A DNA stretch of 64,000 nucleotides from Haliotis cracherodii (Eukaryota): contig NW_027266264.1 in NCBI RefSeq assembly GCF_022045235.1, positions 30,070,001-30,134,000 of the forward strand, given 5' to 3'. Positions 4,901-56,327 of the stretch are shown here, in pieces (the stretch's first letter is position 1; each line of letters begins with the position of its first letter). The notes beneath the pieces are model-generated. The model made no database searches and was not told the DNA's origin. It saw nothing but the letters and a program-made list of their open reading frames with translations. A program made the position numbers and the translations under genes.

Positions 4901-6989
4901 AGAGCATTCTATGAGATATAAATCCCTGTAATATTCAATGTGTGATCAATTTACCGTGATATGCCACCTGGATGTATACTGTAGGTCCGGGCAACACAGA
5001 GAATATGTTACAGCTAAGCACACAGAGATCAGACAAATATACACATTTATTTACAAGGTATTGACCAGAACGACACTTCACAATGGCCATACTGTCTTTT
5101 ATCAAATCAGGATTATTATTCTTAATTGAATGATGAAAGTTATCTTTAATTTGTTACTCAATAAATAGAAATGAATGTAGATACACAGCTATTGAACACT
5201 CTACTACTAGTTAAAATTAAACTCTACGACAATATCATCTAGTATTTACTTAAAAGTTGTCCAAGGCTGTTGTTTACAAGAACATTTCCCAAAGAGGAAG
5301 GCTGGCTTCCAGTGTAATGCTGTGGTGTTGCCTCTAGAAGGTCTAAACTACACACAGAATGTAGAGAGATATAATCACATTCCTCCCCATGCAGTTGGAA
5401 ACCAAAGTCAAGAAGACATGCTGAGAATAAACTGTCATTCAGTACAAGTTGTTGCAATTGAAATGAGAAATGGAAAAAAATACAAAGGCATAACCTGTAG
5501 AAGGGGCAACAGCTCTAGAACCTAACATAACGTGAGTGATGCTTTTTTGTAACCGTGACGATGCATTAACAGCTTCAGCACCATTATCACACTCCCACAA
5601 CTTCATCCTTTGATAAATATGGCCTCATCTGGCCAATAGCTTAATTGCTTTTCAGTCACGATATATATTTCTTTTTCTTGTTTTTAATGCTGTGATTTAA
5701 CAGGAATACTGTTCACCCAGTTACACCCATCTCACGCACTTATTTTTGAAGACGAATATTTCTCTGCAGCCATGGTAGCATTCTAAGGAATAGAACCAAA
5801 GGCTCCGTATCACATCTCGAAGTCCGAAAAGGGATAGTTTGAAATATTGAATTTACAGGGGTTCATCTAATCAAAATACAATGCTGAATGAATTGTCTTA
5901 CTTTTGTACAAAGTGGTACTAAGTTAAGAGCTTAATCTATTGAGAAACACCACCAGCATGTCGATGCATCCAGGTTCCATCACAGGAAAAAAGTGACGTG
6001 ATATTGTTACAGTACAATCACATCCTAACTACAGGGTTTGGTATTTTGACTGTCATTATTGAAATGAAATGAAAGTAATTATTATTTTTTTTAAGTAAAA
6101 GGTTGTCTTAAATAGTATTGCTTCTTAAATTTGGACATTTAAACTTTACGTTAATGCCTTTGTCAATCAACCAATGGGTGATCAGTGCTGTCTCCTCAAA
6201 CATTTAGTTGATCTAGTTGGAAATATTTAGAAAATGAGTTGGGTCATAACTTTATCGTGTCTGTGAATAACGCTACTGTTATCAAATTGTATATGATTTA
6301 GAATTGCTCGGTACTTTCTATCTACCACTGAATTGGTCATCGTCATAACGGAACCACCTCTGAGTACCTGGCATGCCAAATATAAAAAATAATTTAGCTG
6401 GTGCCACTCTACCATATGCTCAGTGTAGACCTCTAAAGACAACAACTGTACAAGTGAAGGGATATATGTTTCAGAAGTATCTGTTGAAAGAAAATTTTGA
6501 AAAGAAAATAACATTTTCATAAGGAATAACACCATTGTCAGCCATGTTTGCTGGCAAACCACAGTTGTTTTTGTTGACGGTCGTCTTTAAAATATGTTGC
6601 CCTTATCTTGTGAACTTCGTCACAGGAGTGTAGAAGCAGAAAGTGGTGAGGGGTCCAAACATATACCTGAAAGCTCCTCGGTACTTGGAAGTGCTACGTA
6701 TGACAATGACCTATGTTCCCCTCCCTTCTGGTGGTGTTGAGCAGCTAGGGGCCACGTGATGAGTGGCGTGAAGGTGGATAGGTGGGGGAGAGGGAGTGAA
6801 GTTGTGACAGTGATGATGGAGTCTAAAGCTGTTCATGCAAATGTCACACATGGTGGCAGACTAATGTAAGAAAAACTGCCAACACACTCAGGAAAGTACT
6901 AAATTGTTAGGCAAATTGTGTGTTAAAAGTATAATATATGATTGTAAGAGTGCAGACTGTGTACTACCATGACTGGGTATAGCCTTCTC

Positions 6990-12118: not shown

Positions 12119-12899
12119 GAACCTTACCTCCCTCCTTGCGTGTCTGCACAGTTGTCACAGTGGATGAAGATTTCAGCACCAACATTCAAAATTCATCATT
12201 TAATAGTCCTAAATCTAAATCATCTATTTCATTCTAAACCACACAAACTCAGGAATGAACTCGAATTCACAAACATCATGCAAAAATCAACTTTATCTAT
12301 ACACATACAGAAACAATCATTTTCCAACTACTTCTCAGTTTACAAATCAAGAGGAGCTATTCCATTGGAAACACTTCTACAGCTGACAAATGTCTAGGGG
12401 ATGTAGCAGCTATTCTGTTCATCATCGTGCATGGTCATGCTAATAAAACAAGGGAGAAAAAACTGGTAACTGAACTGAAAACATCTAGCATCCACTGACG
12501 TGGAGCACATATTTACTTTATTCTTGAGTAGACCAGCTTCTGCTCTCATTACGGTGCGTAACTGCAAGGGAATGCCAGCGTTGTGAATCCCATCAAGCAT
12601 TAAACACAATCATCGTATCAACCTAAAGTCTCTTAAGAGTCTACCTCTCTACTTTCTAGCTACAAACTTTGTACCTGTCTTTTGATCCTCTTGAAAATAC
12701 TTAGGACCTTCAAAATTTGTGTATATATCTGCCGAAGGACAGTGTCAGCAAATCTAGATGTTGACATTTACATTTCAAACCCTTAGGCCCCATGTTCAGA
12801 TCTAGCTGACATCTAGCCTTTCAATCCATTCCCTTGTCTACACATTTATAGATACCTAGCCATCCTCATCCAAGAACCTGGATTCTCATTAGGTTGACG

Positions 12900-16689: not shown

Positions 16690-16775
16690 CCTCCATTTGC
16701 ATGGTGTGACCAGGAGTATTTGTTGCGATAGTCATCATCACCGTACTCGCCATCGCCCCCCATCAGTGATCCACT
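16690..16775 (-). CDS. unc-13: unc-13 exon SGSLMGGDGEYGDDDYRNKYSWSHHANG, probable first common exon of all isoforms
   Basis: tttcag acceptor, GG|gtaagc donor, 86 nt, phase 0 to 2. Bridges exactly the phase-0 upstream donors and the phase-2 exon at 16158. Confidence 0.85.
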
Positions 16776-19719: not shown

Positions 19720-20187
19720 CTCAACACTATATGCTGCTTCTCGAGACCAAATCCGATGACCTTTTGCATGCTGACACACAGCAACTGTCTTGGTCCTCAT
19801 GAGACGCAACTGAACCGAAGTGTCTGAAGAGTAGCTGGTGGAGTCCTCTGTGTGGGGGACACCTATGTCCTGGCTGCTGGAGCAGCTTCTGCTCGCTGTC
19901 CCATCATCCGTGGAGGACGGAGTCGCCACCTCCTCCTCAATGGCATCACGGTCATCAAGTTTCCTCTTCTGCCACGATGGCCGTGCATGTCGACTAAATG
20001 TTCGTCTCCATGTCTTGGCTTCAAATCTGGCTGAATTTTGCCTGTAAAGATCAAGGCTGGCTGGTCTGCAGGTAAGGTCTTCTTCTTCGACAACATATAC
20101 CCAATCCCCCTCAGTCTTGCTCATCATGGTCGACATACTGCTCTCAGCAGGGTGTATCCTATCCATCATGGCGCCCATGCTGACCAT
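19720..20187 (-). CDS. unc-13: candidate alternative N-terminal coding exon of unc-13 (156 codons, MVSMGAMMDR...AAYSVE)
   Basis: Non-repetitive ORF with an in-frame upstream stop at 20251-20253. Ends at GAG|gtaaga in phase 0, compatible with the acceptor at 16775. Confidence 0.65.
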
Positions 20188-31238: not shown

Positions 31239-31634
31239 CTGTAACTTCTGAGGCCCATTGACTTCCTGCAGGAAGCCCTGATTATATAAGTCACATTCGG
31301 GGTCACTGTCGTGTTCACTGTCGTGTTCACCTGTCCCTCCAGCCGCCCCTTCGTCAACATCTTCCAACTCCCACGACCTGTCATCATTCGCAGACATTGT
31401 TTGGTCAACACTTAACTCAGTTGCTTGTTTTTCAATACGAATCCGCCAGAGTTCCTGCAGAAACAATGGCAAAACGTCCAGAAATGTGCGCTCTTCTTGT
31501 GACTTGTGTTTGAAACTAACGCAATGACTGACCACCTCCGCTGAGTCAGTTGTCACAGACGCATCCCTGTCTTCATCAGTTTCACAGTTTGACTTGTCAC
31601 TTTCTGCAACAATCTTAGCTATCAAACTTCCCAT
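31239..31634 (-). CDS. unc-13: candidate alternative N-terminal coding exon of unc-13 (132 codons, MGSLIAK...GPQKLQ)
   Basis: Kozak context aacaagATGG, acidic non-repetitive ORF, CAG|gtatca phase-0 donor compatible with the acceptor at 16775. Confidence 0.6.
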
Positions 31635-41109: not shown

Positions 41110-41278
41110 CTCAGTGAGTTGGGTGATGACTCCATCATAGGCCTTGAGCCACAGAACCTGAGCTGTTGATGGCATTTCTTGACTTGTGTTGTTGTATGTT
41201 CCTTCGTAGGAATCATTGCAGTAATCCTGGGTGCTCTGGCGACTCACGTTGGAAGATGACACTCTGCTGTTGACAGGG
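41110..41278 (-). CDS. unc-13: unc-13 exon with calmodulin-binding helix (SPVNSRVSSSNVSRQSTQDY...AQVLWLKAYDGVITQLTE)
   Basis: ttttcag acceptor, GAG|gttagt donor, 169 nt, phase 2 to 0. WLKAYDGVITQLTE parallels the Munc13-1 CaM site WLRAFNKVRMQLQE. Confidence 0.88.
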
Positions 41279-41316
41279 CTGAAAAGACATGTCAGCACAA
41301 TGTGAGGACAAGATAC

Positions 41317-43400
41317 TGTAGGCTATTGTAGAGGTCATAACAACACAGTAGACTATTGTAGAGGCCAGAACAACACAGTAGACTATTGTAGAGGTCATAA
41401 CAACACAGTAGACTATTGTAGAGGCCATAACAACACAGTAGACTATTGTAGAGGCCATTACAACACAGTAGACCATTGTAGATGCCATAACAACACAGAA
41501 GACTATTGTAGAGGCCATAACAACACAGTAGACTATTGTAGAGACCATAACAAAACAGCAGACTATTGTAGAGGCCTCCATAACAACACAGTAGACTATT
41601 GTAGAGGCCATAACAACACAGTATACTATTGTAGAGGCCTCCATAACAACACATTAGGCTATTGTAGATGCCATAACAACACAGTATACTATTGTAGAGG
41701 CCATAACAACACAGTAGACTATTGTAGAGGCCATAACAACACAGCAGACTATTGTAGAGGCCTCCATAACAACACAGTAGACTATTGTAGAGGCCAGAAC
41801 AACACAGTAGACTATTGTAGAGGCCATAACAACACAGTAGACTATTGTAGAGGCCATAACAACACAGTAGACTATTGTAGAGGCCAGAACAACACAGTAG
41901 ATTATTGTAGATGCCATAACAACACAGTAGACTATTGTAGAGGCCATTACAACACAGTAGACTATTGTAGAGGCCAGAACAACACAGCAGACTATTGTAG
42001 AGGCCAGAACAACACAGTAGACTATTGTAGAGGCCATTACAACACAGTAGAGTATTGTAGAGGCCAGAACAACACAGTAGACTATTGTAGAGGCCAGAAC
42101 AACACAGTAGACTATTGTAGAGGCCAGAACAACACAGTAGACTATTGTAGATACCATAACAACACAGTAGACTATTGTAGAGGCCATAACAACACAGTAG
42201 ACTATTGTAGAGGCCAGAACAACACAGTAGACTATCGTAGATGCCATAACAACACAGTATACTGATGTAGAGGTCATACAAATGCAGTAGGTTATTGTAG
42301 AGGTCATACAAACACAGTAGGCTATTGTAGAGGCCATAACAACACAGTAGACTATTGTAGAGGTCATACAAACACAGCAGACTATTGTAGAGGCCCTAAC
42401 AACACAGCAGACTATTGTAGAGGCCAGAACAACACAGCAGACTATTGAAGTGGCCAGAACAACACAGCAGACTATTGTAGAGGCCATAACAACACAGTAG
42501 ACTATTGTAGAGGCCAGAACAACACAGAAGACTATTGTAGATGCCATAACAACATAGAAGACTATTGTACAGGCCATAACAACACAGTAGACTATTGAAG
42601 AGGCCATAACAACACATTAGGCTATTGTAGATGCCATAACAACACAGTAGACTATTGTAGAGGCCATAACAACACAGTAGACTATTGTAGAGGCCATAAC
42701 AACACAGCAGACTATTGTAGAGGCCAGAACAACACAGCAGACTATTGTAGAAGCCTCCATTACAACACAGCAGACTATCGTAGAGGCCATAACAACACAG
42801 CAGACTATTGTAGAGGCCAGAACAACACAGCAGACTATTGTAGAGGCCTCCATAACAACACAGAAGACTATCGTAGATGCTATAACAACACAGTAGACTA
42901 TTGTAGATGCCATAACAACACAGAAGACTATTGTAGAGGCCAGAACAACACAGTAGACTATTGTAGAGGCCATAACAACACAGTATACTATTGTAGAGGC
43001 CATAACAACACATTAGACTATTGTAGAGGCCAGAACAACACAACAGACTATTGTAGAGGCCATAACAACACAGTAGATTATTGTAAAGGCCATAACAACA
43101 CAGTAGACTATTGTAGAGGCCATAACAACACAGTAGACTATTGTAGATGCCATAACAACACATTAGGCTATTGTAGAGGCCCTAACAACACAGTAGACTA
43201 TTGTAGAGGCCATAACAACACAGTAGACTATTGGAGAGGCCTCCATAAGAACACAGCAGACTATTGTAGATGCCATAACAACACAGTAGACTATTGTAGA
43301 GGCCCTAACAACACAGAAGACTATTGTAGAGGCCATAACAACACAGTATACTATTGTAGAGGCCCTAACAACACTGTAGACAGTGTATAGGCAATAACAA
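41317..43400. repeat. 30-bp minisatellite, ~68 copies
   Basis: Unit gactattgtagaggccataacaacacagta. Confidence 0.97.
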
Positions 43401-43979
43401 CATACTGTAGGATATTTAGGAGGCCAATACAACACATTGAGGAAAGATGTAGAGGCCATTTCAAGACAGTAGACTACATCATACTGTTGACCATTGTAGG
43501 GGTCATTAAGACATACTGCAGGCTATTGAACAGGCCATTACAACATGATGTGGAGTTAGGTGAGAGGAACAATCCTGTGACAAATGTGAACTACAAACCA
43601 CACAGACTACATGCCTAGTGACATTACCCATATCCATCAAGGAATAATTTCTGACCAATGTTTTTACAAACATGCATTTTCTACTAACCACAGTCCACAG
43701 TCACAACAATAACTGCAGGCACTTTTCGCTCCATTCCAAAATGTGGCTACCACAAGTTTTCCATACATATTTCCTGAATCTCAGTGAGAGCAAACTGAAG
43801 CCAGATGGAGAACAAATAATTTTCTGGTGTTATTACAATGACCTTTTAACATAATAATGTACAGATTTATGTGTAATTGCCAGGACTAATGGCAACAGGT
43901 TCCGGTCTAACACCAGGCAGTTGATATAAGCTCATAGATACATCATTCTGTCATTCTACATGTCAAGGTTTCAATTTGA

Positions 43980-44290
43980 AACACTGTGTATCTATGTTGG
44001 ATTTCTATATATAACACTGTGTATCTATGTTAGATTTCTATGTATAACATTATGTATCTATGTTGGATTTCTATATATAACACTGTGTATCTATGTTAGA
44101 TTTCTATGTATAACATTATGTATCTGTTAGATTTCTATATATAACACTGTGTATCTATGTAAGATTTCAATGTATAACACTATGTATCTATGTTAGATTT
44201 CTACATATAACACTGTGTATCTATGTTAGATTTCTATATATAACACTGTATCTATGTTAGATTTCTATATATAACACTGTGTATCTATGT
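43980..44290. repeat. ~33-bp AT-rich minisatellite
   Basis: Unit acactgtgtatctatgttagatttctatatata. Confidence 0.9.
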
Positions 44291-45309
44291 TATAGTCTGG
44301 AAGGTAATTGAAGGTACCGACGTTTACTACAACATCTGAAAAACTATTGGACCTACTCCAGTCAAAGTTGGTATGAGATTATTAAACAGTCATACATAAC
44401 TGGATATTACATTTAAAGACAGTCGGTTGATGAATAAAAAATCTGTCTATTTAGCTATCACTATATTGCATCAACAACCAGACCTGTTCGTCACAGGTGG
44501 AACGAGCATTCATTGAAACAGCCATCTGCATAATGCTACCCCTGCGTCACAGGGCCATATGACACAGTTGAACCAATCAACTCAACTCGAAAGGGTGCAC
44601 GGGAATCATGCACGTTGAGACGCCCAACCCCCCACACCACCCACCCGCGGCCGGCTACGTCACTGAGAATAATACATTTAATGCTACATAATAAATATGA
44701 CCTTGATATTTTCTTCAATAATGTCCTTGACATTCTCTTTCATGTGTCCATAATGTTGTCCTAGGTATCTACCCTAGAAAATGTTATATTGTCATATATA
44801 TTGTGTTGATATCAATTGTAAATATTTCTACAGCAGTCTTACTAAGTTTCCCAATGTGATCAAAGTACACCATTTGTTTACAAATTTGTGCCATTTTGGA
44901 ATTGTGTTAAAAATGAAGAATTCTTTTCATTTCATATACATATTCATCTTAACAAAGCCGGCATTAAGGAGTACTAGTATTACATTTAATGTTTATGTCA
45001 ACGTTTGCATTATACATGAGCTCAGCAGTATCTGGTAATGTAAAACTCAAAAAGACATTTTTATGAAACAAAATGTCAACCCTAGGGAATTGGTATCAAC
45101 ATAATTAACATCAACTTCAACTGAACTGTGTGTTTCCAAGCTGTCTTTGTTCAGCTGAAAGCTAAATGTCACCAACAGATCAGCCCTCTACTTAACATAA
45201 GTACCACACTGGCGGGGACAATTACACATGAATAACACTAATGACTACAAGCAGCTGGAAATGGCAAATTATATTTGCTTCACATTAGAAATGTTTAATG
45301 TAATATGCA

Positions 45310-45990
45310 TTGAATTTAATTCCAATAGTCACTGTGTATTTAATTGTATCCCAATAGTCACTGTGTATTGAATGGTATCCCAATAGTCACTGTGTATTTA
45401 ATTGTATCCCAATAGTCACTGGGTATTGAATTGTATCCCAATAGTCACTGGGTATTGAATTGTATCCCTATAGTCACTGTGTATTGAATTGTATCCCAAT
45501 AGTCCCTGGGTATTTAATTGTATCCCAATAGTCACTGGGTATTGAATTGAGTAACTATAGTCACTATGTATTGAATGGTATCCCAATAGTCACTGGGTAT
45601 TGAATCACAATAGTCACTGTATATTGAATCCCAATAGTCACTGTGTATTGAATTGTATCCCAATATTATAGTCACTGTGTATTGAATTGTATAACTATAG
45701 TCACTATGTATTGAATGGTATCCCAATAGTCACTGGGTATTGAATTGTATCCCAATAGTCACTGGGTATTGAATCCCAATAGTCACTGTATATTGAATCC
45801 CAATAGTCACTGTGTATTGAATTGTATCCCAATATTAAAGTCACTGTGTATTGAATTGTATCCCAATAGTCAATGTATTGAATTTAATTCCAATAGCCAC
45901 TGTGTATTAAATTGTATCCCAATAGCCATTATGTATTAAATTGTATCCCAATAGTCACTGTGTATTGAACTGTAACCCAATACAGTCAGT
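45310..45990. repeat. 29-bp minisatellite
   Basis: Unit aatagtcactgtgtattgaattgtatccc. Confidence 0.92.
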
Positions 45991-46614
45991 GAGTATTGCA
46001 ATATATTCCCAGCAAAGTACTTAATCTATCACATACAGTCTAATCTGACAGTACTAATCCCTATTACCCATCCACAAGCCAGTGTTCTGGAGTGCAGGTA
46101 AAGTGAACCGAAGCTGTAGCAAGATTAGCCATCTCCTGTTTAACCTTAATGTCAAATGATGATCGACTACCGTGTCTCCCTCGAGATTATCAACTGAGGT
46201 AGTCTGAAGAAAATAAACTATCATTTGTGACATACTGTGAACATTAAAACCATGTGTGCCATTTGGGTATTTGTTCTACATGGTCTTGCAGAGCGTGAAA
46301 CATACGTAAGTGCAACCTCTCCTCAGACAAGGGTCTTATTACAGTGTGTCACTATGGTCAGAACTTGATTCATCACTGCTGTGGGAGAATAAATATACAC
46401 TGAGAAACAACTAACTATAACTCAGACACAACTGTAGGCTTATGTCCATAACACAATCCCACGGAGTCCAATAAAATCTGTATACACTGCAGGTAATACA
46501 GGTCACGGTACTGTACATGTGCTCTGTGCAAAGTGGGACATCTGGCTGGGGGCTCATGTCTAATTATGTGGTATAATATTTTAACCTAATCCCAACATCT
46601 CACATACCAAACCA

Positions 46615-47200
46615 TAATCTTTGGGCCTCATTTACTAAACTATGATCTTAGGGCCTCACTTTAATACTAAGATGTAAATGTTGGGCCTCATTTACTAAGC
46701 TGTAATCTTAGTGCCTCACTTCAATACTAAGATGTAATCCCTGGGCCTCACTTACTAGGCTATAATCTTTGGGCCTCATTTACTAAGCTATAATCTTAGT
46801 GCCACAGTTCAATACTAAGATGTAATCCTTGGGCCTCATTTACTAAGCTATAATCTTAGTGCCTCAGTTCAATACTAAGATGTAATCTTTGGGCCTCACT
46901 TACTAAGCTGTAATCTTAGTGCCTCACTTTAATACTAAGATGTAATCCTTGGGCTTCACTTACTGAGCTGTAATCTTAGTGCCTCACTTTAATTACTAAG
47001 ACGTAATCCTTGGGTCTCACTTACTAAGCTATAATCTTAGGGCCTCACTTACTAAGTTATAATCTTAGTGCCTCACTTTAATACTAAGATGTAATCCTTG
47101 CGCCTCACTTACTAGGTAAACCCTAGGTCATCACTTTGATACTAAGATGTAATCCTTGCGCCTCACATACTAGGTAAACCCTAGGTCATCACTTTAATAC
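46615..47200. repeat. ~30-bp dimeric minisatellite
   Basis: Alternating gggcctcatttactaagctataatcttagt and gcctcactttaatactaagatgtaatcctt. Confidence 0.85.
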
Positions 47201-47664
47201 TCTGATACATTCCGTGGGTCTTAGTAACAATCACACCACCTCACTAACTGGCTACATACATGGCTTCACTGTAATACTCAGATATATTTTTACATATATG
47301 TCTCAGTTTAGTACTAACACTAGCTAGACTCTCAGTTTAACAGAAAGATATCCTTTCCATGGCCAAAACGCATTTATACATAATGATTTTACGGTTTCAA
47401 AATGCTGATATATTTTTTTCGGGAGAAAGACCAATCCAGGATTAAATGAAATGAAATATGAGTTTACAAAACACCTGATCCTTTTCTAACTGCTGTACTG
47501 GACATTCATTCATGAAACATTTTGTTCAAATTGTTCTGTTTAATCCCAAATTGTTTCTCTCTCGAAAAAACATACCAGCGTTTTGAAAACCACATTTTCA
47601 TAATGTGCAAATACGACCAGGTTGTTCTCTCGAGAAAATATCCTGGCTGTGCCAAGGATATAAT

Positions 47665-49803
47665 TGTAGGGCCTCATTGTAATAGCCAGCTAAAGTCTAG
47701 GGCCTTGTTGTAATAGCCAGCTAAAGTCTAGGGCCTCATTGTAATACCCAGCTAAAGTCTTGGGCCTCATTGTAATACCCAGCTAAAGCCTAGAGTCTCA
47801 TGACGTAATACCCAGCTAAAGTCTAGGGCCTCATTGTAATACCCAGCTAATGTCTAGGGCCTCATGGTAATACCCAGCTAAAGTCTAGGGCCTCATTGTA
47901 ATACCCAGCTAAAGTCTAGGGCCTCATGGTAATACCCAGCTAAAGTCTAGGGCCTCATGGTATACCCAGGTAAAGTCTAGGGCCTCATGGTAATACCCAG
48001 GTTAAGTCTAGGGCCTCATTGTAATACCCAGCTAAAGTCTAGGGCCTCATGGTAATACCCAGCTTAAGTCTAGGGCCTCATGGTAATACCCAGCTTAAGT
48101 CTAGGGCCTCATTGTAATACCCAGCTAAAGTCTAGGGCCTCATGGTAATACCCAGCTAAAGTCTAGGGCTTCATTGTAATACCCAGCTAAAGTCTAGGGC
48201 CTCATAATGTAATACCCAGCTAAAGTCTAGGGCCTCATTGTAATACCCAGCTAAAGTCTAGGGCCTCATGGTAATACCCAGCTTAAGTCTAGGGCCTCAT
48301 GGTAATACCCAGCTTAAGTCTAGGGCCTCATTGTAATACCCAGCTAAAGTCTAGGGCCTCATGGTAATACCCAGCTAAAGTCTAGGGCCTCATTGTAATA
48401 CCCAGCTAAAGTCTAGGGCCTCATAATGTAATACCCAGCTAAAGTCTAGGGCCTCATTGTAATACCCAGCTAAAGTCTAGGGCCTCATGGTAATACCCAG
48501 CTTAAGTCTAGGGCCTCATGGTAATACCCAGCTTAAGTCTAGGGCCTCATTGTAATACCCAGCTAAAGTCTAGGGCCTCATGGTAATACCCAGCTAAAGT
48601 CTAGGGCCTCATTGTAATACCCAGCTAAAGTCTAGGGCCTCATAATGTAATACCCAGCTAAAGTCTAGGGCCTCATTGTAATACCCAGCTAAAGTCTAGG
48701 GCCTCATTGTAATACCCAGGTAACGTCTAGGGCCTCATTGTAATACCCAGGTTAAGTCTAGAGTCTCATAATGTAATACCCAGCTAAAGTCTAGGGCCTT
48801 GTTGTAATACCCAGCTAAAGTCTTGGGCCTCATTGTAATACCCAGCTAAAGTCTAGGGCCTCATGGTAATACCCAGCTAAAGTCTAGGGCCTCATAATGT
48901 AATACCCAGCTAAAGTCTAGGGCCTCATTGTAATACCCAGCTAAAGTCTAGGGCCTCATGGTAATACCCAGCTTAAGTCTAGGGCCTCATGGTAATACCC
49001 AGCTTAAGTCTAGGGCCTCATTGTAATACCCAGCTAAAGTCTAGGGCCTCATGGTAATACCCAGCTAAAGTCTAGGGCCTCATTGTAATACCCAGCTAAA
49101 GTCTAGGGCCTCATAATGTAATACCCAGCTAAAGTCTAGGGCCTCATTGTAATACCCAGCTAAAGTCTAGGGCCTCATTGTAATACCCAGGTAACGTCTA
49201 GGGCCTCATTGTAATACCCAGGTTAAGTCTAGAGTCTCATAATGTAATACCCAGCTAAAGTCTAGGGCCTTGTTGTAATACCCAGCTAAAGTCTTGGGCC
49301 TCATTGTAATACCCAGCTAAAGTCTAGGGCCTCATGGTAATACCCAGCTAAAGTCTAGGGCCTCATTGTAATACCCAGGTAACGTCTAGGGCCTCATTGT
49401 AATACCCAGGTTAAGTCTAGAGTCTCATAATGTAATACCCAGCTAAAGTCTAGGGCCTTGTTGTAATACCCAGCTAAAGTCTTGGGCCTCATTGTAATAC
49501 CCAGCTAAAGCCTAGAGTCTCATAATGTAATACCCAGCTAAAGTCTAGGGCCTTGTTGTAATACCCAGCTAAAGTCTAGGGCGTCATTGTAATACCCAGC
49601 TAAAGTCTGGGGCCTCATTGTAATACCCAGCTAAAGTCTAGGGCCTCATTGTAATACCCAGCTAAAGTCTAGGGCCTCATTGTAATACCCAGCTAAAGTC
49701 TGGGGCCTCATTGTAATACCCAGCTAAAGTCTAGGGCCTCATTGTAATACCCAGCTTAAGTCTAGGGCCTCATTGTAATACCCAGCTTAAGTCTAGGGCC
49801 TCA
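47665..49803. repeat. 31-bp minisatellite with higher-order structure
   Basis: Unit gggcctcattgtaatacccagctaaagtcta. Confidence 0.97.
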
Positions 49804-49811
49804 CTACTGAC

Positions 49812-49871
49812 CTGTAATCCTGGGTGCTCTGTCGGCTCATGTTCATGGAAGAGTTACGACTCATGGCTGGG
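49812..49871 (-). CDS. unc-13: unc-13 60-nt symmetric exon SPAMSRNSSMNMSRQSTQDY, paralogous to the 5' part of the CaM exon
   Basis: cttctttttcag acceptor, CAG|gtcagt donor, phase 2 to 2, open frame. Shares CAGAGCACCCAGGATTAC with exon 41110-41278. Confidence 0.8.
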
Positions 49872-51008: not shown

Positions 51009-52303
51009 ATGAAGGGTGGCTGAAAAGTTCAGAGCCCTATGATGGACTGTGGCCGTGGTGTTGGTTGCTGATTATTTTTGCCAATGATGCATGAGTGAAT
51101 CGTTCCCACTTGTCGGTGTTAAATGTCCTCTAGAGCAGAAACGATGTCATCATCATTTGCATAATGCTTGCCAGTCAGTTCTTTCTTAAAGTTTGAGAAG
51201 AGATGGGAATCTGATGGTGCCAAATCTGGTGAATATCGAGGTGTTCAAGCCACAGTCATGCATTGCAGCCATGGCAGCAACAGACTTTTGCACAGGTTTA
51301 TTGTCCACGTTGGACAGCACACCTTTAGTGACTATTCCATGAGATTTATCCTTGATAACAGATTAGCATAATATTGGCCATTAATGGTCAGACTTTTCGG
51401 GAGGTGGTACACCATCCAGTAGTCAAATGGAAGGCAGGAGATGTAACAGACGTTGCCTTCTTTGGAGAAGGAGACGTTAGATGTTTCCACTGCTTTGACT
51501 TTTAGTCTCTGGATGATAGTGGTGAACCCAAGACATCAATGGTTACAAATCACACAACATATCACCTGGCTCTGCATCAAAATGATGAAATTCTAAGAGG
51601 TGATGAACCTGGTGCCAGAAGCCTTGGAACCTAGCGTGCTGAAACCTGTTATACCCAGTTCATTCCTTAGAATGTTGTCAACTCTCTCAGGAGGAATGCC
51701 TACTGTATTGTGAGTCATTAATCATTCATAATCATATCTAGTATTTTATCAGCATTGTCCTTAGTGGTGGCAGTCGCAGGTCTTCCTGATCTTGGATCAT
51801 CTTCCAGGTTCTCTCTTGCCTTCTCGGTTTGACTTCCCACCTCTTAACAGGGGCAGTGGGGTAGCCTAGTGGTTAAAGCGGTCGCTTGTCATGCCTAAGT
51901 CCCGAGGTCGATTCCCAACATGGGTGCAATGTGTGAAGCCCATTTCTGGTGTCTGTGATATTGCTGGAATATTGGTTAACGAGACGTTAACCCACTCACT
52001 CACTTCCACCTCTTAACAGTGGCAAAGGAAGGAGCATCAGTCCCAAAAGTTGACAACATGTACACATGGATAGCTGTTGGAGTTTACCATTTTTGTTGGA
52101 GATCCTTGACGACAATGCAGTAGATACTTCACAGAAAATTCCCAGTCACTTTGATTCCTACAAAATTATGCTGCCTGGTTGCACACTTGGTTCAAATGCA
52201 GCCTATAAGTATGGTCAGCATTGTACTTAATACATGCAAAGTGTTAAGCGTGTATGATACATCCTTTGCAGTTAGGCTCAGGGAATTTCTGCCTCCGCTC
52301 GTA
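51009..52303 (-). mobile_element. decayed mariner (Tc1/mariner) transposon with a nested SINE
   Basis: Minus-strand translation gives PRYSPDLAPSDSHLFSNFKKELTGKHYANDDDIVSALED (~51125-51242) and LEDDPRSGRP (~51780-51808). Degenerate TIRs near 51009-51037 and 52274-52303. Frames are broken. Confidence 0.88.
51851..52005 (+). mobile_element. SINE family B nested in the mariner
   Basis: 14-bp TSD ccacctcttaacag (51837-51850 and 52006-52019), actcact tail. Confidence 0.9.
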
Positions 52304-55137: not shown

Positions 55138-55640
55138 ATTGAATAAAGGTGCAAAGCCAAAACAACCATTTCAATATACTTATAATATAATATACAATAA
55201 AACAATTCAATAGCAACTTGTTTTACTCAGTTCAGAATGTTGCTACCAATGAGTGTCATATCTAAAGGACATGTGGATGATTAAATCTTTTACTAGTTTT
55301 CCCAGAACAAGGACTAAATGTATCAGCTTCTGTGGTCCCCTAGTTTCAGACAGCAGGTAAAAGCATGCACTGTTTATCATGCAGATGTACTATGTACAGA
55401 CACTACAGGGAGATCTACTGAACTGTGTCGAACAGCTCACCTGGCAGGGCTCATCATACTGAAACAGTGGGAGGTAGAAAACTCATCTAACATTCAAAAC
55501 ATCAACTCCAGTAAGGCTTCACAGTCACACAAAACCAACATTGCTGAACAACTCCAAACATTTCTCACGACCACAAAACAGGGTTTACCATAAGGATAGT
55601 GCCTTGATAGTCCAATTATATTTAGCACAGGAAAGTGGGC

Positions 55641-55998: not shown

Positions 55999-56296
55999 CT
56001 GTCGTTAATGAAAGATTGCGGCCGACTGTTGGGTCGACTATTGTAGTACAAGGGTTCTGAGTCGGTGTCACTTCGGCCTGGCTGGTACATGCCGCCATCT
56101 TGGTAGTAGTCCGGTTCCCGCTCAAACCCTCTGTCAAATGAGCGGTCAAACGAGTCAAAGCGAGGGTAGTCGCGATCCTCCCGCAACCTGTAGGGGTGGT
56201 CCGGGTGGCTGCGGTACTGGTGCGCTGATGTGTTGTGCTGGTGTTGTAAGGGGAAGTTGACATCGCTGGTGTAGTCACTGTCCTCAGACATTCCAG
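55999..56296 (-). CDS. unc-13: unc-13 exon [16 protein letters not shown]...[19 protein letters not shown]
   Basis: tttcag acceptor, AG|gtaagt donor, 298 nt, phase 1 to 2. [10 protein letters not shown] and PLYYNSRP motifs typical of invertebrate Unc13 long isoforms. Confidence 0.92.
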
Positions 56297-56327
56297 CTGA
56301 AACCCATTGGACAACAATAGGAAATCC

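What the first reader, a model, noticed from the sequence alone, without database searches (positions are those of the whole stretch)
41110..49871. Partial exon duplication creating a cassette copy of the SRQSTQDY motif
Seen: exon 49812-49871 (SPAMSRNSSMNMSRQSTQDY) aligns without gaps to the first 20 residues of the CaM exon (SPVNSRVSSSNVSRQSTQDY), 8.5 kb away. The acceptor phase is the same and the two share an 18-nt identical core. A GT donor truncates one copy so it is symmetric and skippable. Known: RxxS/T is the CaMKII consensus and RxS a minimal PKA site. Inference: splicing tunes the number of phosphosites next to the CaM helix.
Basis: partly seen in the sequence, partly recalled or inferred. 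Interest (0 to 1): 0.7.

Follow-up and report, generated by a model that had tools for sequence, protein, structure and literature searches.

The report
Ancient doubled kinase motif in Unc13
The abalone gene for the synaptic release protein Unc13 carries a short motif twice, on two separate exons, a doubling shared across molluscs; the motif is a likely CaMKII phosphorylation site, and its copy number likely changes with the choice of first exon, since no skipping of the extra exon was seen in abalone.

Summary
The window is abalone unc-13 (minus strand). Exon 49812-49871 (60 nt, phase 2-2) matches the first 60 nt of the calmodulin-helix exon 41110-41278 at 41/60 bases, with an 18-nt identical run. 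The duplication is old, not an abalone novelty: 154 of 156 long-form proteins from molluscs and one annelid carry both copies, while a brachiopod and a hemichordate carry one. The cassette claim is not supported in abalone: 13 of 13 listed long isoforms and spliced contigs in 7 of 7 runs include the exon. One scallop RefSeq isoform does skip its equivalent. One contig instead joins an alternative, cysteine-rich first exon (43689-43768) straight to the calmodulin exon. This matches published Aplysia unc13B, and further first exons bypass both copies. Copy number (2, 1, 0) therefore likely follows promoter choice. The conserved core fits the CaMKII substrate pattern at -5, -3, -2 and +2 but not at -8 or +1, so it is likely an ordinary substrate site; phosphorylation is untested. 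My searches found no description of the repeat. Verdict: a real, modestly interesting detail of a well-known gene.

The parts
55999..56297 (-). Upstream linker exon of the long (C2A) isoform; donor phase 2
   Evidence: RefSeq mapping; splice sites
55441..55458 (-). 18-nt cassette microexon, phase 2-2, present in 10 and absent in 3 of 13 listed long Haliotis isoforms
49812..49871 (-). Exon A: 60-nt symmetric exon carrying the first motif copy; included in every abalone long form seen
47667..49803 (.). 31-bp tandem array starting 9 nt past the exon A donor; no trace of further exon homology
43689..43768 (-). Coding part of an alternative first exon (ATG 43768, in-frame stop just upstream, GT donor after 43689), cysteine-rich, spliced to the CaM exon; unc13B type
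   Evidence: one contig in run X4; located and read; not among the 15 listed Haliotis RefSeq isoforms
41318..43476 (.). 30-bp tandem array filling most of the intron between that first exon and the CaM exon
41219..41278 (-). First 60 nt of the CaM exon: second motif copy
41110..41278 (-). CaM exon, 169 nt, phase 2 to 0
41110..41151 (-). Predicted calmodulin-binding helix from the anchor Trp (1-5-8-12 hydrophobic pattern)
31239..31634 (-). Alternative first exon of RefSeq isoform X9; bypasses both copies and the CaM helix
19720..20187 (-). Predicted alternative first exon of unc13C type; would bypass both copies and the CaM helix
   Evidence: open frame and phase-0 donor; similarity to Biomphalaria N-terminus (E 0.005) and to Aplysia unc13C
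16690..16775 (-). First exon common to all isoforms

Best explanation
Exon 49812-49871 is a second copy of the motif that opens the calmodulin-helix exon of unc-13, shared across molluscs and included in every abalone long isoform seen, and the motif is likely a CaMKII phosphorylation site whose dose (two, one or none) is likely set by the choice of first exon. Shown: homology, splice phases, inclusion, conservation in gastropods, bivalves and cephalopods, two copies in one annelid, single copies in Lingula and Saccoglossus, and first exons entering between and after the copies. Inferred: an ancestral single motif at the start of the CaM exon was duplicated with its acceptor in an early lophotrochozoan or mollusc, the new copy gained a frame-keeping donor, and protein-level selection has kept both. 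Predicted mechanism: Ca2+/CaM-activated CaMKII phosphorylates the threonine of each copy in the linker between C2A and C1, 27 and 47 residues before the CaM anchor, which would adjust Unc13 activity during repeated firing. The long isoform would have two sites, the short unc13B-type isoform one, and the downstream-start isoforms none.
For: Both copies in 154 of 156 proteins that have the upstream exon and the CaM helix, from 36 of 38 species tallied. Exon A joined to the CaM exon in 7 of 7 runs, 6 studies, 5 organism labels. Exon A splice sites are as close to consensus as those of neighbouring exons: donor 8 of 9, 12 of 15 pyrimidines. Synonymous sites look near saturation: 7 of 14 shared residues use the same codon, 5.1 expected, P 0.20; abalone copy B is as close to the copy B of distant locus L001 (42/58 nt) as to its own copy A (40/58). 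In 22 two-copy representatives, copy B keeps a hydrophobic residue at -5 in 21, Arg at -3 in 21, Gln at -2 in 22, Thr in 21, Asp/Glu at +2 in 20; copy A keeps Arg in 17 and STQD in 22. These are the positions CaMKII favours (PMC9336311). The strict pattern occurs only at these two places in the 1628-residue protein; 0.7% of 20,000 linker shuffles gave one, none gave two. First-exon route: X4 contig, Patella RefSeq X8, Aplysia unc13B numbering leaves only 17 residues before the junction, and PMC9282427 reports four promoter-driven forms.
Against: Scallop RefSeq X16 skips the equivalent exon (1 of 13 listed) and a Bulinus gene model lacks it, so skipping can occur. Contigs drop rare variants and tissues are unknown, so neuron-specific skipping in abalone is not excluded; 5 of 20 Haliotis cluster members were not listed. 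The alternative-first-exon junction rests on one contig in 1 of 7 runs, with 30 letters on the CaM side, one short of the tool's bar for a bridge. The motif lacks the -8 basic and +1 hydrophobic residues of high-affinity CaMKII partners and is serine-rich, which that paper says is disfavoured. Copy A has lost the Arg in 5 of 7 bivalves. A single origin is only weakly shown: 15 of 22 first copies and 18 of 22 second copies score closer to their own class, with small margins. The 18-nt run is longer than the simple null gives (P 0.009). The core pattern was used to find the copies, which inflates conservation at its fixed positions. No phosphorylation data were found.
Confidence: 0.58

Rival explanations
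1. One reading: exon A is a regulated cassette, skipped in some neurons or stages, so splicing tunes the number of phosphosites.
For: Symmetric 60-nt exon, skipping keeps frame; symmetric 27-codon equivalent skipped in scallop X16; this gene has real cassettes nearby (18, 45 and 24 nt).
Against: No skip in 13 of 13 listed Haliotis long isoforms or in 7 of 7 runs, while the neighbouring small cassettes do show both forms in RefSeq; near-consensus splice sites.
Confidence: 0.15
2. The repeat is a conserved binding motif or a site for another kinase (PKA or PKC on the Ser, an acidophilic kinase), not a CaMKII site.
For: -8 and +1 positions of the full CaMKII consensus are not met; STQD is invariant in copy A even where the Arg is lost; RxxS-type sites are shared by CaMKII, PKA and PKC (PMC4894758).
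Against: The best-kept residues of copy B and of the single copies in Lingula and Saccoglossus are those at -5, -3, -2 and +2 relative to the Thr.
Confidence: 0.2
3. The two copies arose more than once, or are kept alike by gene conversion or by a shared nucleotide-level splicing signal.
For: 18-nt identical run, P 0.009 under a codon-usage null; in cephalopods and locus L001 the first copy resembles second copies more than other first copies.
Against: The test is post hoc and ignores the two-step barrier between serine codon boxes; overall codon identity is not in excess (P 0.20); similar codons recur in L001; Solemya and gastropods share first-copy-specific residues.
Confidence: 0.12

Closest known systems
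Aplysia unc13A/B/C and truncated isoforms (PMC9282427)
   Same: One gene, alternative intronic promoters, forms with C2A plus CaM site, CaM site only, and none; same 1-5-8-12 helix; abalone first exons at 43689-43768 and 19720-20187 correspond to B and C types.
   Different: The section and supplement passages read do not mention the doubled motif, its exon structure or a CaMKII site; figures were not seen.
Munc13-1 / ubMunc13-2 calmodulin-binding segment (PDB 2KDU)
   Same: Top PDB hit of the mollusc profile, aligned at the Trp-anchored helix (E 0.076).
   Different: Weak score; the abalone exon alone finds nothing and its helix has one basic residue against 2-4 in the 23 other representatives.
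C. elegans UNC-13L X domain (PMC11991699)
   Same: Unstructured linker between C2A and C1 that holds the CaM site and regulates release.
   Different: That paper says the CaM site is the only known sequence in X; whether nematodes have this motif was not tested.
CaMKII substrate consensus (PMC9336311)
   Same: Hydrophobic -5, Arg -3, Gln -2, acidic +2.
   Different: No basic residue at -8, no hydrophobic +1, serine-rich context: substrate-like, not a tight docking site.
Tandem exon duplication giving cassette or mutually exclusive exons (general knowledge, recalled)
   Same: Homologous neighbouring exons with the same acceptor phase.
   Different: Both copies are used together in one transcript; the copy is partial and very old.

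Membership tests
Unc13/Munc13 | C1 domain followed by C2B and MUN | tested here: met
   Pfam C1_1 at 1967-2260, E 8e-15; window exons match RefSeq unc-13 isoforms letter for letter; those proteins carry PF00168, PF06292, PF00130. C2B and MUN lie outside the window.
Munc13-type CaM-binding site | 1-5-8-(12) hydrophobic anchors | tested here: met
   Trp, Tyr, Val, Leu at 1, 5, 8, 12
Munc13-type CaM-binding site | Hydrophobic residue at 26 and basic character | tested here: inconclusive
   Tyr falls at 25 (hand count); one basic residue, net charge 0
Munc13-type CaM-binding site | Ca2+/CaM binding | not tested
   No binding prediction or data
Cassette exon | Symmetric, canonical AG/GT ends | tested here: met
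   60 nt, phase 2-2
Cassette exon | Skipped transcripts exist in this species | tested here: inconclusive
   0 of 13 listed Haliotis long isoforms and 0 of 7 runs show a skip; contigs cannot show absence
Cassette exon | Skipping in an orthologue | tested here: met
   Mizuhopecten RefSeq X16, 1 of 13 listed; read support not checked
Mutually exclusive duplicated exons | Only one copy per transcript | tested here: not met
   Both copies joined in 7 of 7 runs and 154 of 156 proteins
CaMKII substrate site | R at -3, hydrophobic -5, Q at -2, acidic +2 | tested here: met
High-affinity CaMKII partner (GluN2B type) | Basic residue at -8 and hydrophobic +1 | tested here: not met
   Ser at -8 and Gln at +1 in both abalone copies; the paper allows that -8 may lie further away
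CaMKII substrate site | Phosphorylated by CaMKII | not testable with these tools
   Needs kinase assay or phosphoproteomics

The most novel reading that the evidence does not exclude
Unc13 has carried a CaMKII site just upstream of its calmodulin helix since the bilaterian ancestor; molluscs and annelids doubled it by exon duplication, and alternative promoters deal out 2, 1 or 0 sites, with the one-site isoform swapping the RIM-binding C2A domain for a palmitoylated cysteine-rich tip. Unc13 would then be a direct, isoform-dosed presynaptic CaMKII target, testable at Aplysia synapses.
Probability: 0.25. Interest if true: 0.68.

Novelty: new variant of a known kind. Interest (0 to 1): 0.36.

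Why it matters
[quoted passage not shown] A motif kept from hemichordate to mollusc and doubled across molluscs gives a precise target for mutation in Aplysia, where unc13 isoforms are already mapped. Until phosphorylation is shown it is an annotation-level result in a well-studied gene.

Tried and rejected
Recent abalone-specific duplication: rejected. Mutually exclusive use: rejected. Third copy: none in six frames of the window or by genome DNA search (low sensitivity). No run was on record as RNA (no RNA holder listed); the contigs were taken as spliced because they stop at the AG and GT ends and continue into other exons. Contig depths were not used as inclusion levels. A tblastn of the Patella short N-terminus against the window did not find the abalone first exon, so the two are equivalent by position, not by shown homology. 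The CaM exon alone found only 3 proteins and no PDB chain. The metagenome scan gave 1 locus from 84 candidate stretches, L001, a spliced sequence, so no genomic splice sites of other species were read directly. No arthropod, nematode or vertebrate protein was recognisable among the named hits of the profile searches; most of the 39 hits are unnamed, so presence in those groups is open. Literature: nine searches; the motif as text gave 0 papers, and figures and most subscription papers are not searched. Earlier scan findings: none. No fold or complex prediction was run.
Full report
1. The observation. Both segments are on the minus strand. Exon A runs 49871-49812 (60 nt, phase 2-2, donor CAG|GTCAGT). 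The CaM exon runs 41278-41110 (169 nt, phase 2-0). They match at 41 of 60 bases without gaps, with an 18-nt identical run; the next best match in the window is 30/60 and 200 shuffles reached at most 35. The introns are unrelated beyond the acceptor.

2. The gene. A C1 domain lies at 1967-2260. The upstream exon finds mollusc unc-13 proteins, and RefSeq Haliotis cracherodii isoforms map onto the window letter for letter. The order in the long form is: linker exon 56297-55999, optional 18-nt microexon 55458-55441, exon A, CaM exon, common exon from 16775. The helix at the end of the CaM exon aligns with the Munc13-1 calmodulin peptide as the top PDB hit of a mollusc profile (E 0.076) and with the alignment of PMC9282427 Fig. 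S14.

3. Age. I tallied 173 named proteins from 37 mollusc species and the annelid Dimorphilus; unnamed fragments, several partial models, and the outgroups were left out, and cluster look-ups list at most 15 members each. Of 156 with both the upstream exon and the CaM helix, 154 carry both copies, in 36 of 38 species. The two exceptions are a Bulinus gene model and scallop isoform X16. Lingula (14 of 14) and the hemichordate Saccoglossus have one clear copy before the helix; Paralvinella's model shows none. Many unnamed open frames begin matching at the same SP residues after unrelated sequence, which suggests the CaM-exon acceptor is old. Synonymous sites are near saturation: 7 of 14 shared residues have the same codon, 5.1 expected (P 0.20), and abalone copy B is as like the copy B of distant locus L001 (42/58) as its own copy A (40/58). 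The 18-nt run itself is somewhat unexpected (P 0.009, post hoc). One origin is likely but weakly shown: 15 of 22 first copies and 18 of 22 second copies score nearer their own class, and cephalopod and L001 first copies look like second copies. The duplication is thus at least as old as the gastropod-bivalve-cephalopod ancestor (Cambrian, recalled), and older if the annelid pair is orthologous.

4. Is it a cassette? In three Haliotis species 13 of 13 listed long isoforms include exon A (15 of 20 cluster members listed), whereas the 18-nt microexon is absent in 3 of 13. I laid 7 of the 24 listed runs on the CaM exon (6 studies, 5 organism labels; RNA status is the tool's guess). All 7 have a contig with exon A directly before the CaM exon and none shows the skip junction (for X8 read from the table of pieces, as the loose-end table was cut). 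Contigs drop rare variants, so low-level or neuron-specific skipping remains possible. Exon A has a donor matching 8 of 9 consensus positions and a strong pyrimidine tract. Against my reading, scallop X16 lacks exactly the equivalent 27 residues, so the exon can be skipped in at least one annotated bivalve isoform.

5. What does change the copy number. Run X4 has a second contig entering the CaM exon. Its loose letters match window 43690-43719 exactly, ending at a GT donor after 43689. The frame opens at an ATG at 43768 behind an in-frame stop and encodes 26 residues ending in a cysteine cluster. This is one contig in 1 of 7 runs with 30 letters on the CaM side, so it is a lead with outside support. 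Patella RefSeq X8 starts with a cysteine-rich peptide joined at the same point. Four unnamed proteins share a short three- or four-cysteine N-terminus before the same point. Aplysia unc13B has its 33-residue CaM segment ending at residue 88, which, with the numbering calibrated on Lingula, leaves 17 residues before the junction, too few for exon A (the Pomacea number in that figure did not fit the calibration). PMC9282427 reports four Aplysia forms from intronic promoters. First exons at 31634-31239 (RefSeq X9) and, predicted, 20187-19720 bypass both copies and the helix. So isoforms carry two, one or no copies.

6. Likely function. Among 22 two-copy representatives the second copy keeps hydrophobic -5 (21), Arg -3 (21), Gln -2 (22), Thr (21) and acidic +2 (20); the first keeps Arg in 17, losing it in 5 of 7 bivalves (the search pattern fixes part of the core). 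PMC9336311 lists these positions as favoured by CaMKII, and adds a basic -8 and hydrophobic +1 for tight binders; both abalone copies lack these two. The strict pattern occurs only at these two places in the protein, and in none of 20,000 linker shuffles twice. I infer an ordinary CaMKII substrate site, 27 and 47 residues before the CaM anchor, in a linker whose deletion raises release in C. elegans (PMC11991699). Phosphorylation, its effect, and palmitoylation of the short N-terminus are untested; the parallel with palmitoylated versus domain-bearing first exons of PSD-95 is recalled, not from a call.

7. Known and new. Unc13 isoforms from alternative promoters are known. I found no text description of the doubled motif (0 papers; other searches). 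Papers seen: PMC9282427, passages, section 13 whole and supplement passages with the Fig. S14 text, no images; PMC9336311, PMC11991699, PMC12184661, PMC4894758 and 10.1101/2025.01.10.632340, passages only; PMC12443042, a term search with no hits; the rest as listings. Supplements of the preprint were not seen. Verdict: real ancient duplication, cassette role not supported in abalone, phosphosite role plausible; new variant of a known kind, interest 0.36.

Noticed in passing
window 19720-20187 (-): Predicted unc13C-type first exon, not among the 15 listed Haliotis RefSeq isoforms. Its conserved segment, which PMC9282427 guessed to be a divergent CaM site, fits the full CaMKII consensus of PMC9336311 in Biomphalaria, Pomacea and Candidula proteins and in the printed Aplysia segment; abalone meets it except at -8.
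   Followed up: partly
window 43689-43768 (-): Cysteine-rich alternative first exon; short cysteine-rich N-termini enter at the same point in Patella and four unnamed proteins, possibly palmitoylation anchors replacing C2A.
   Followed up: partly
window 41110-41166 (-): The abalone CaM helix has lost most basic residues (1 against 2-4 in 23 other representatives) and may bind calmodulin weakly.
   Followed up: partly
window 55441-55458, 12517-12561, 4955-4978 (-): Three small symmetric cassette exons (18, 45, 24 nt) that vary among RefSeq isoforms.
   Followed up: partly
P0101, P0102, P0107 (Octopus, Argonauta): A further short doubled acidic segment sits between the two motif copies in octopods.
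   Followed up: no
P0229: A Dimorphilus-like unnamed open frame has both copies and the helix contiguous and then leaves the protein, suggesting loss of the intron between the copies.
   Followed up: no
whole window: About 27 of 64 kb is intronic minisatellite arrays with many different units, several starting within tens of bases of splice sites.
   Followed up: no
window 51122-51872 (-): Short open frames resembling a broken mariner-type transposase (recalled resemblance).
   Followed up: no
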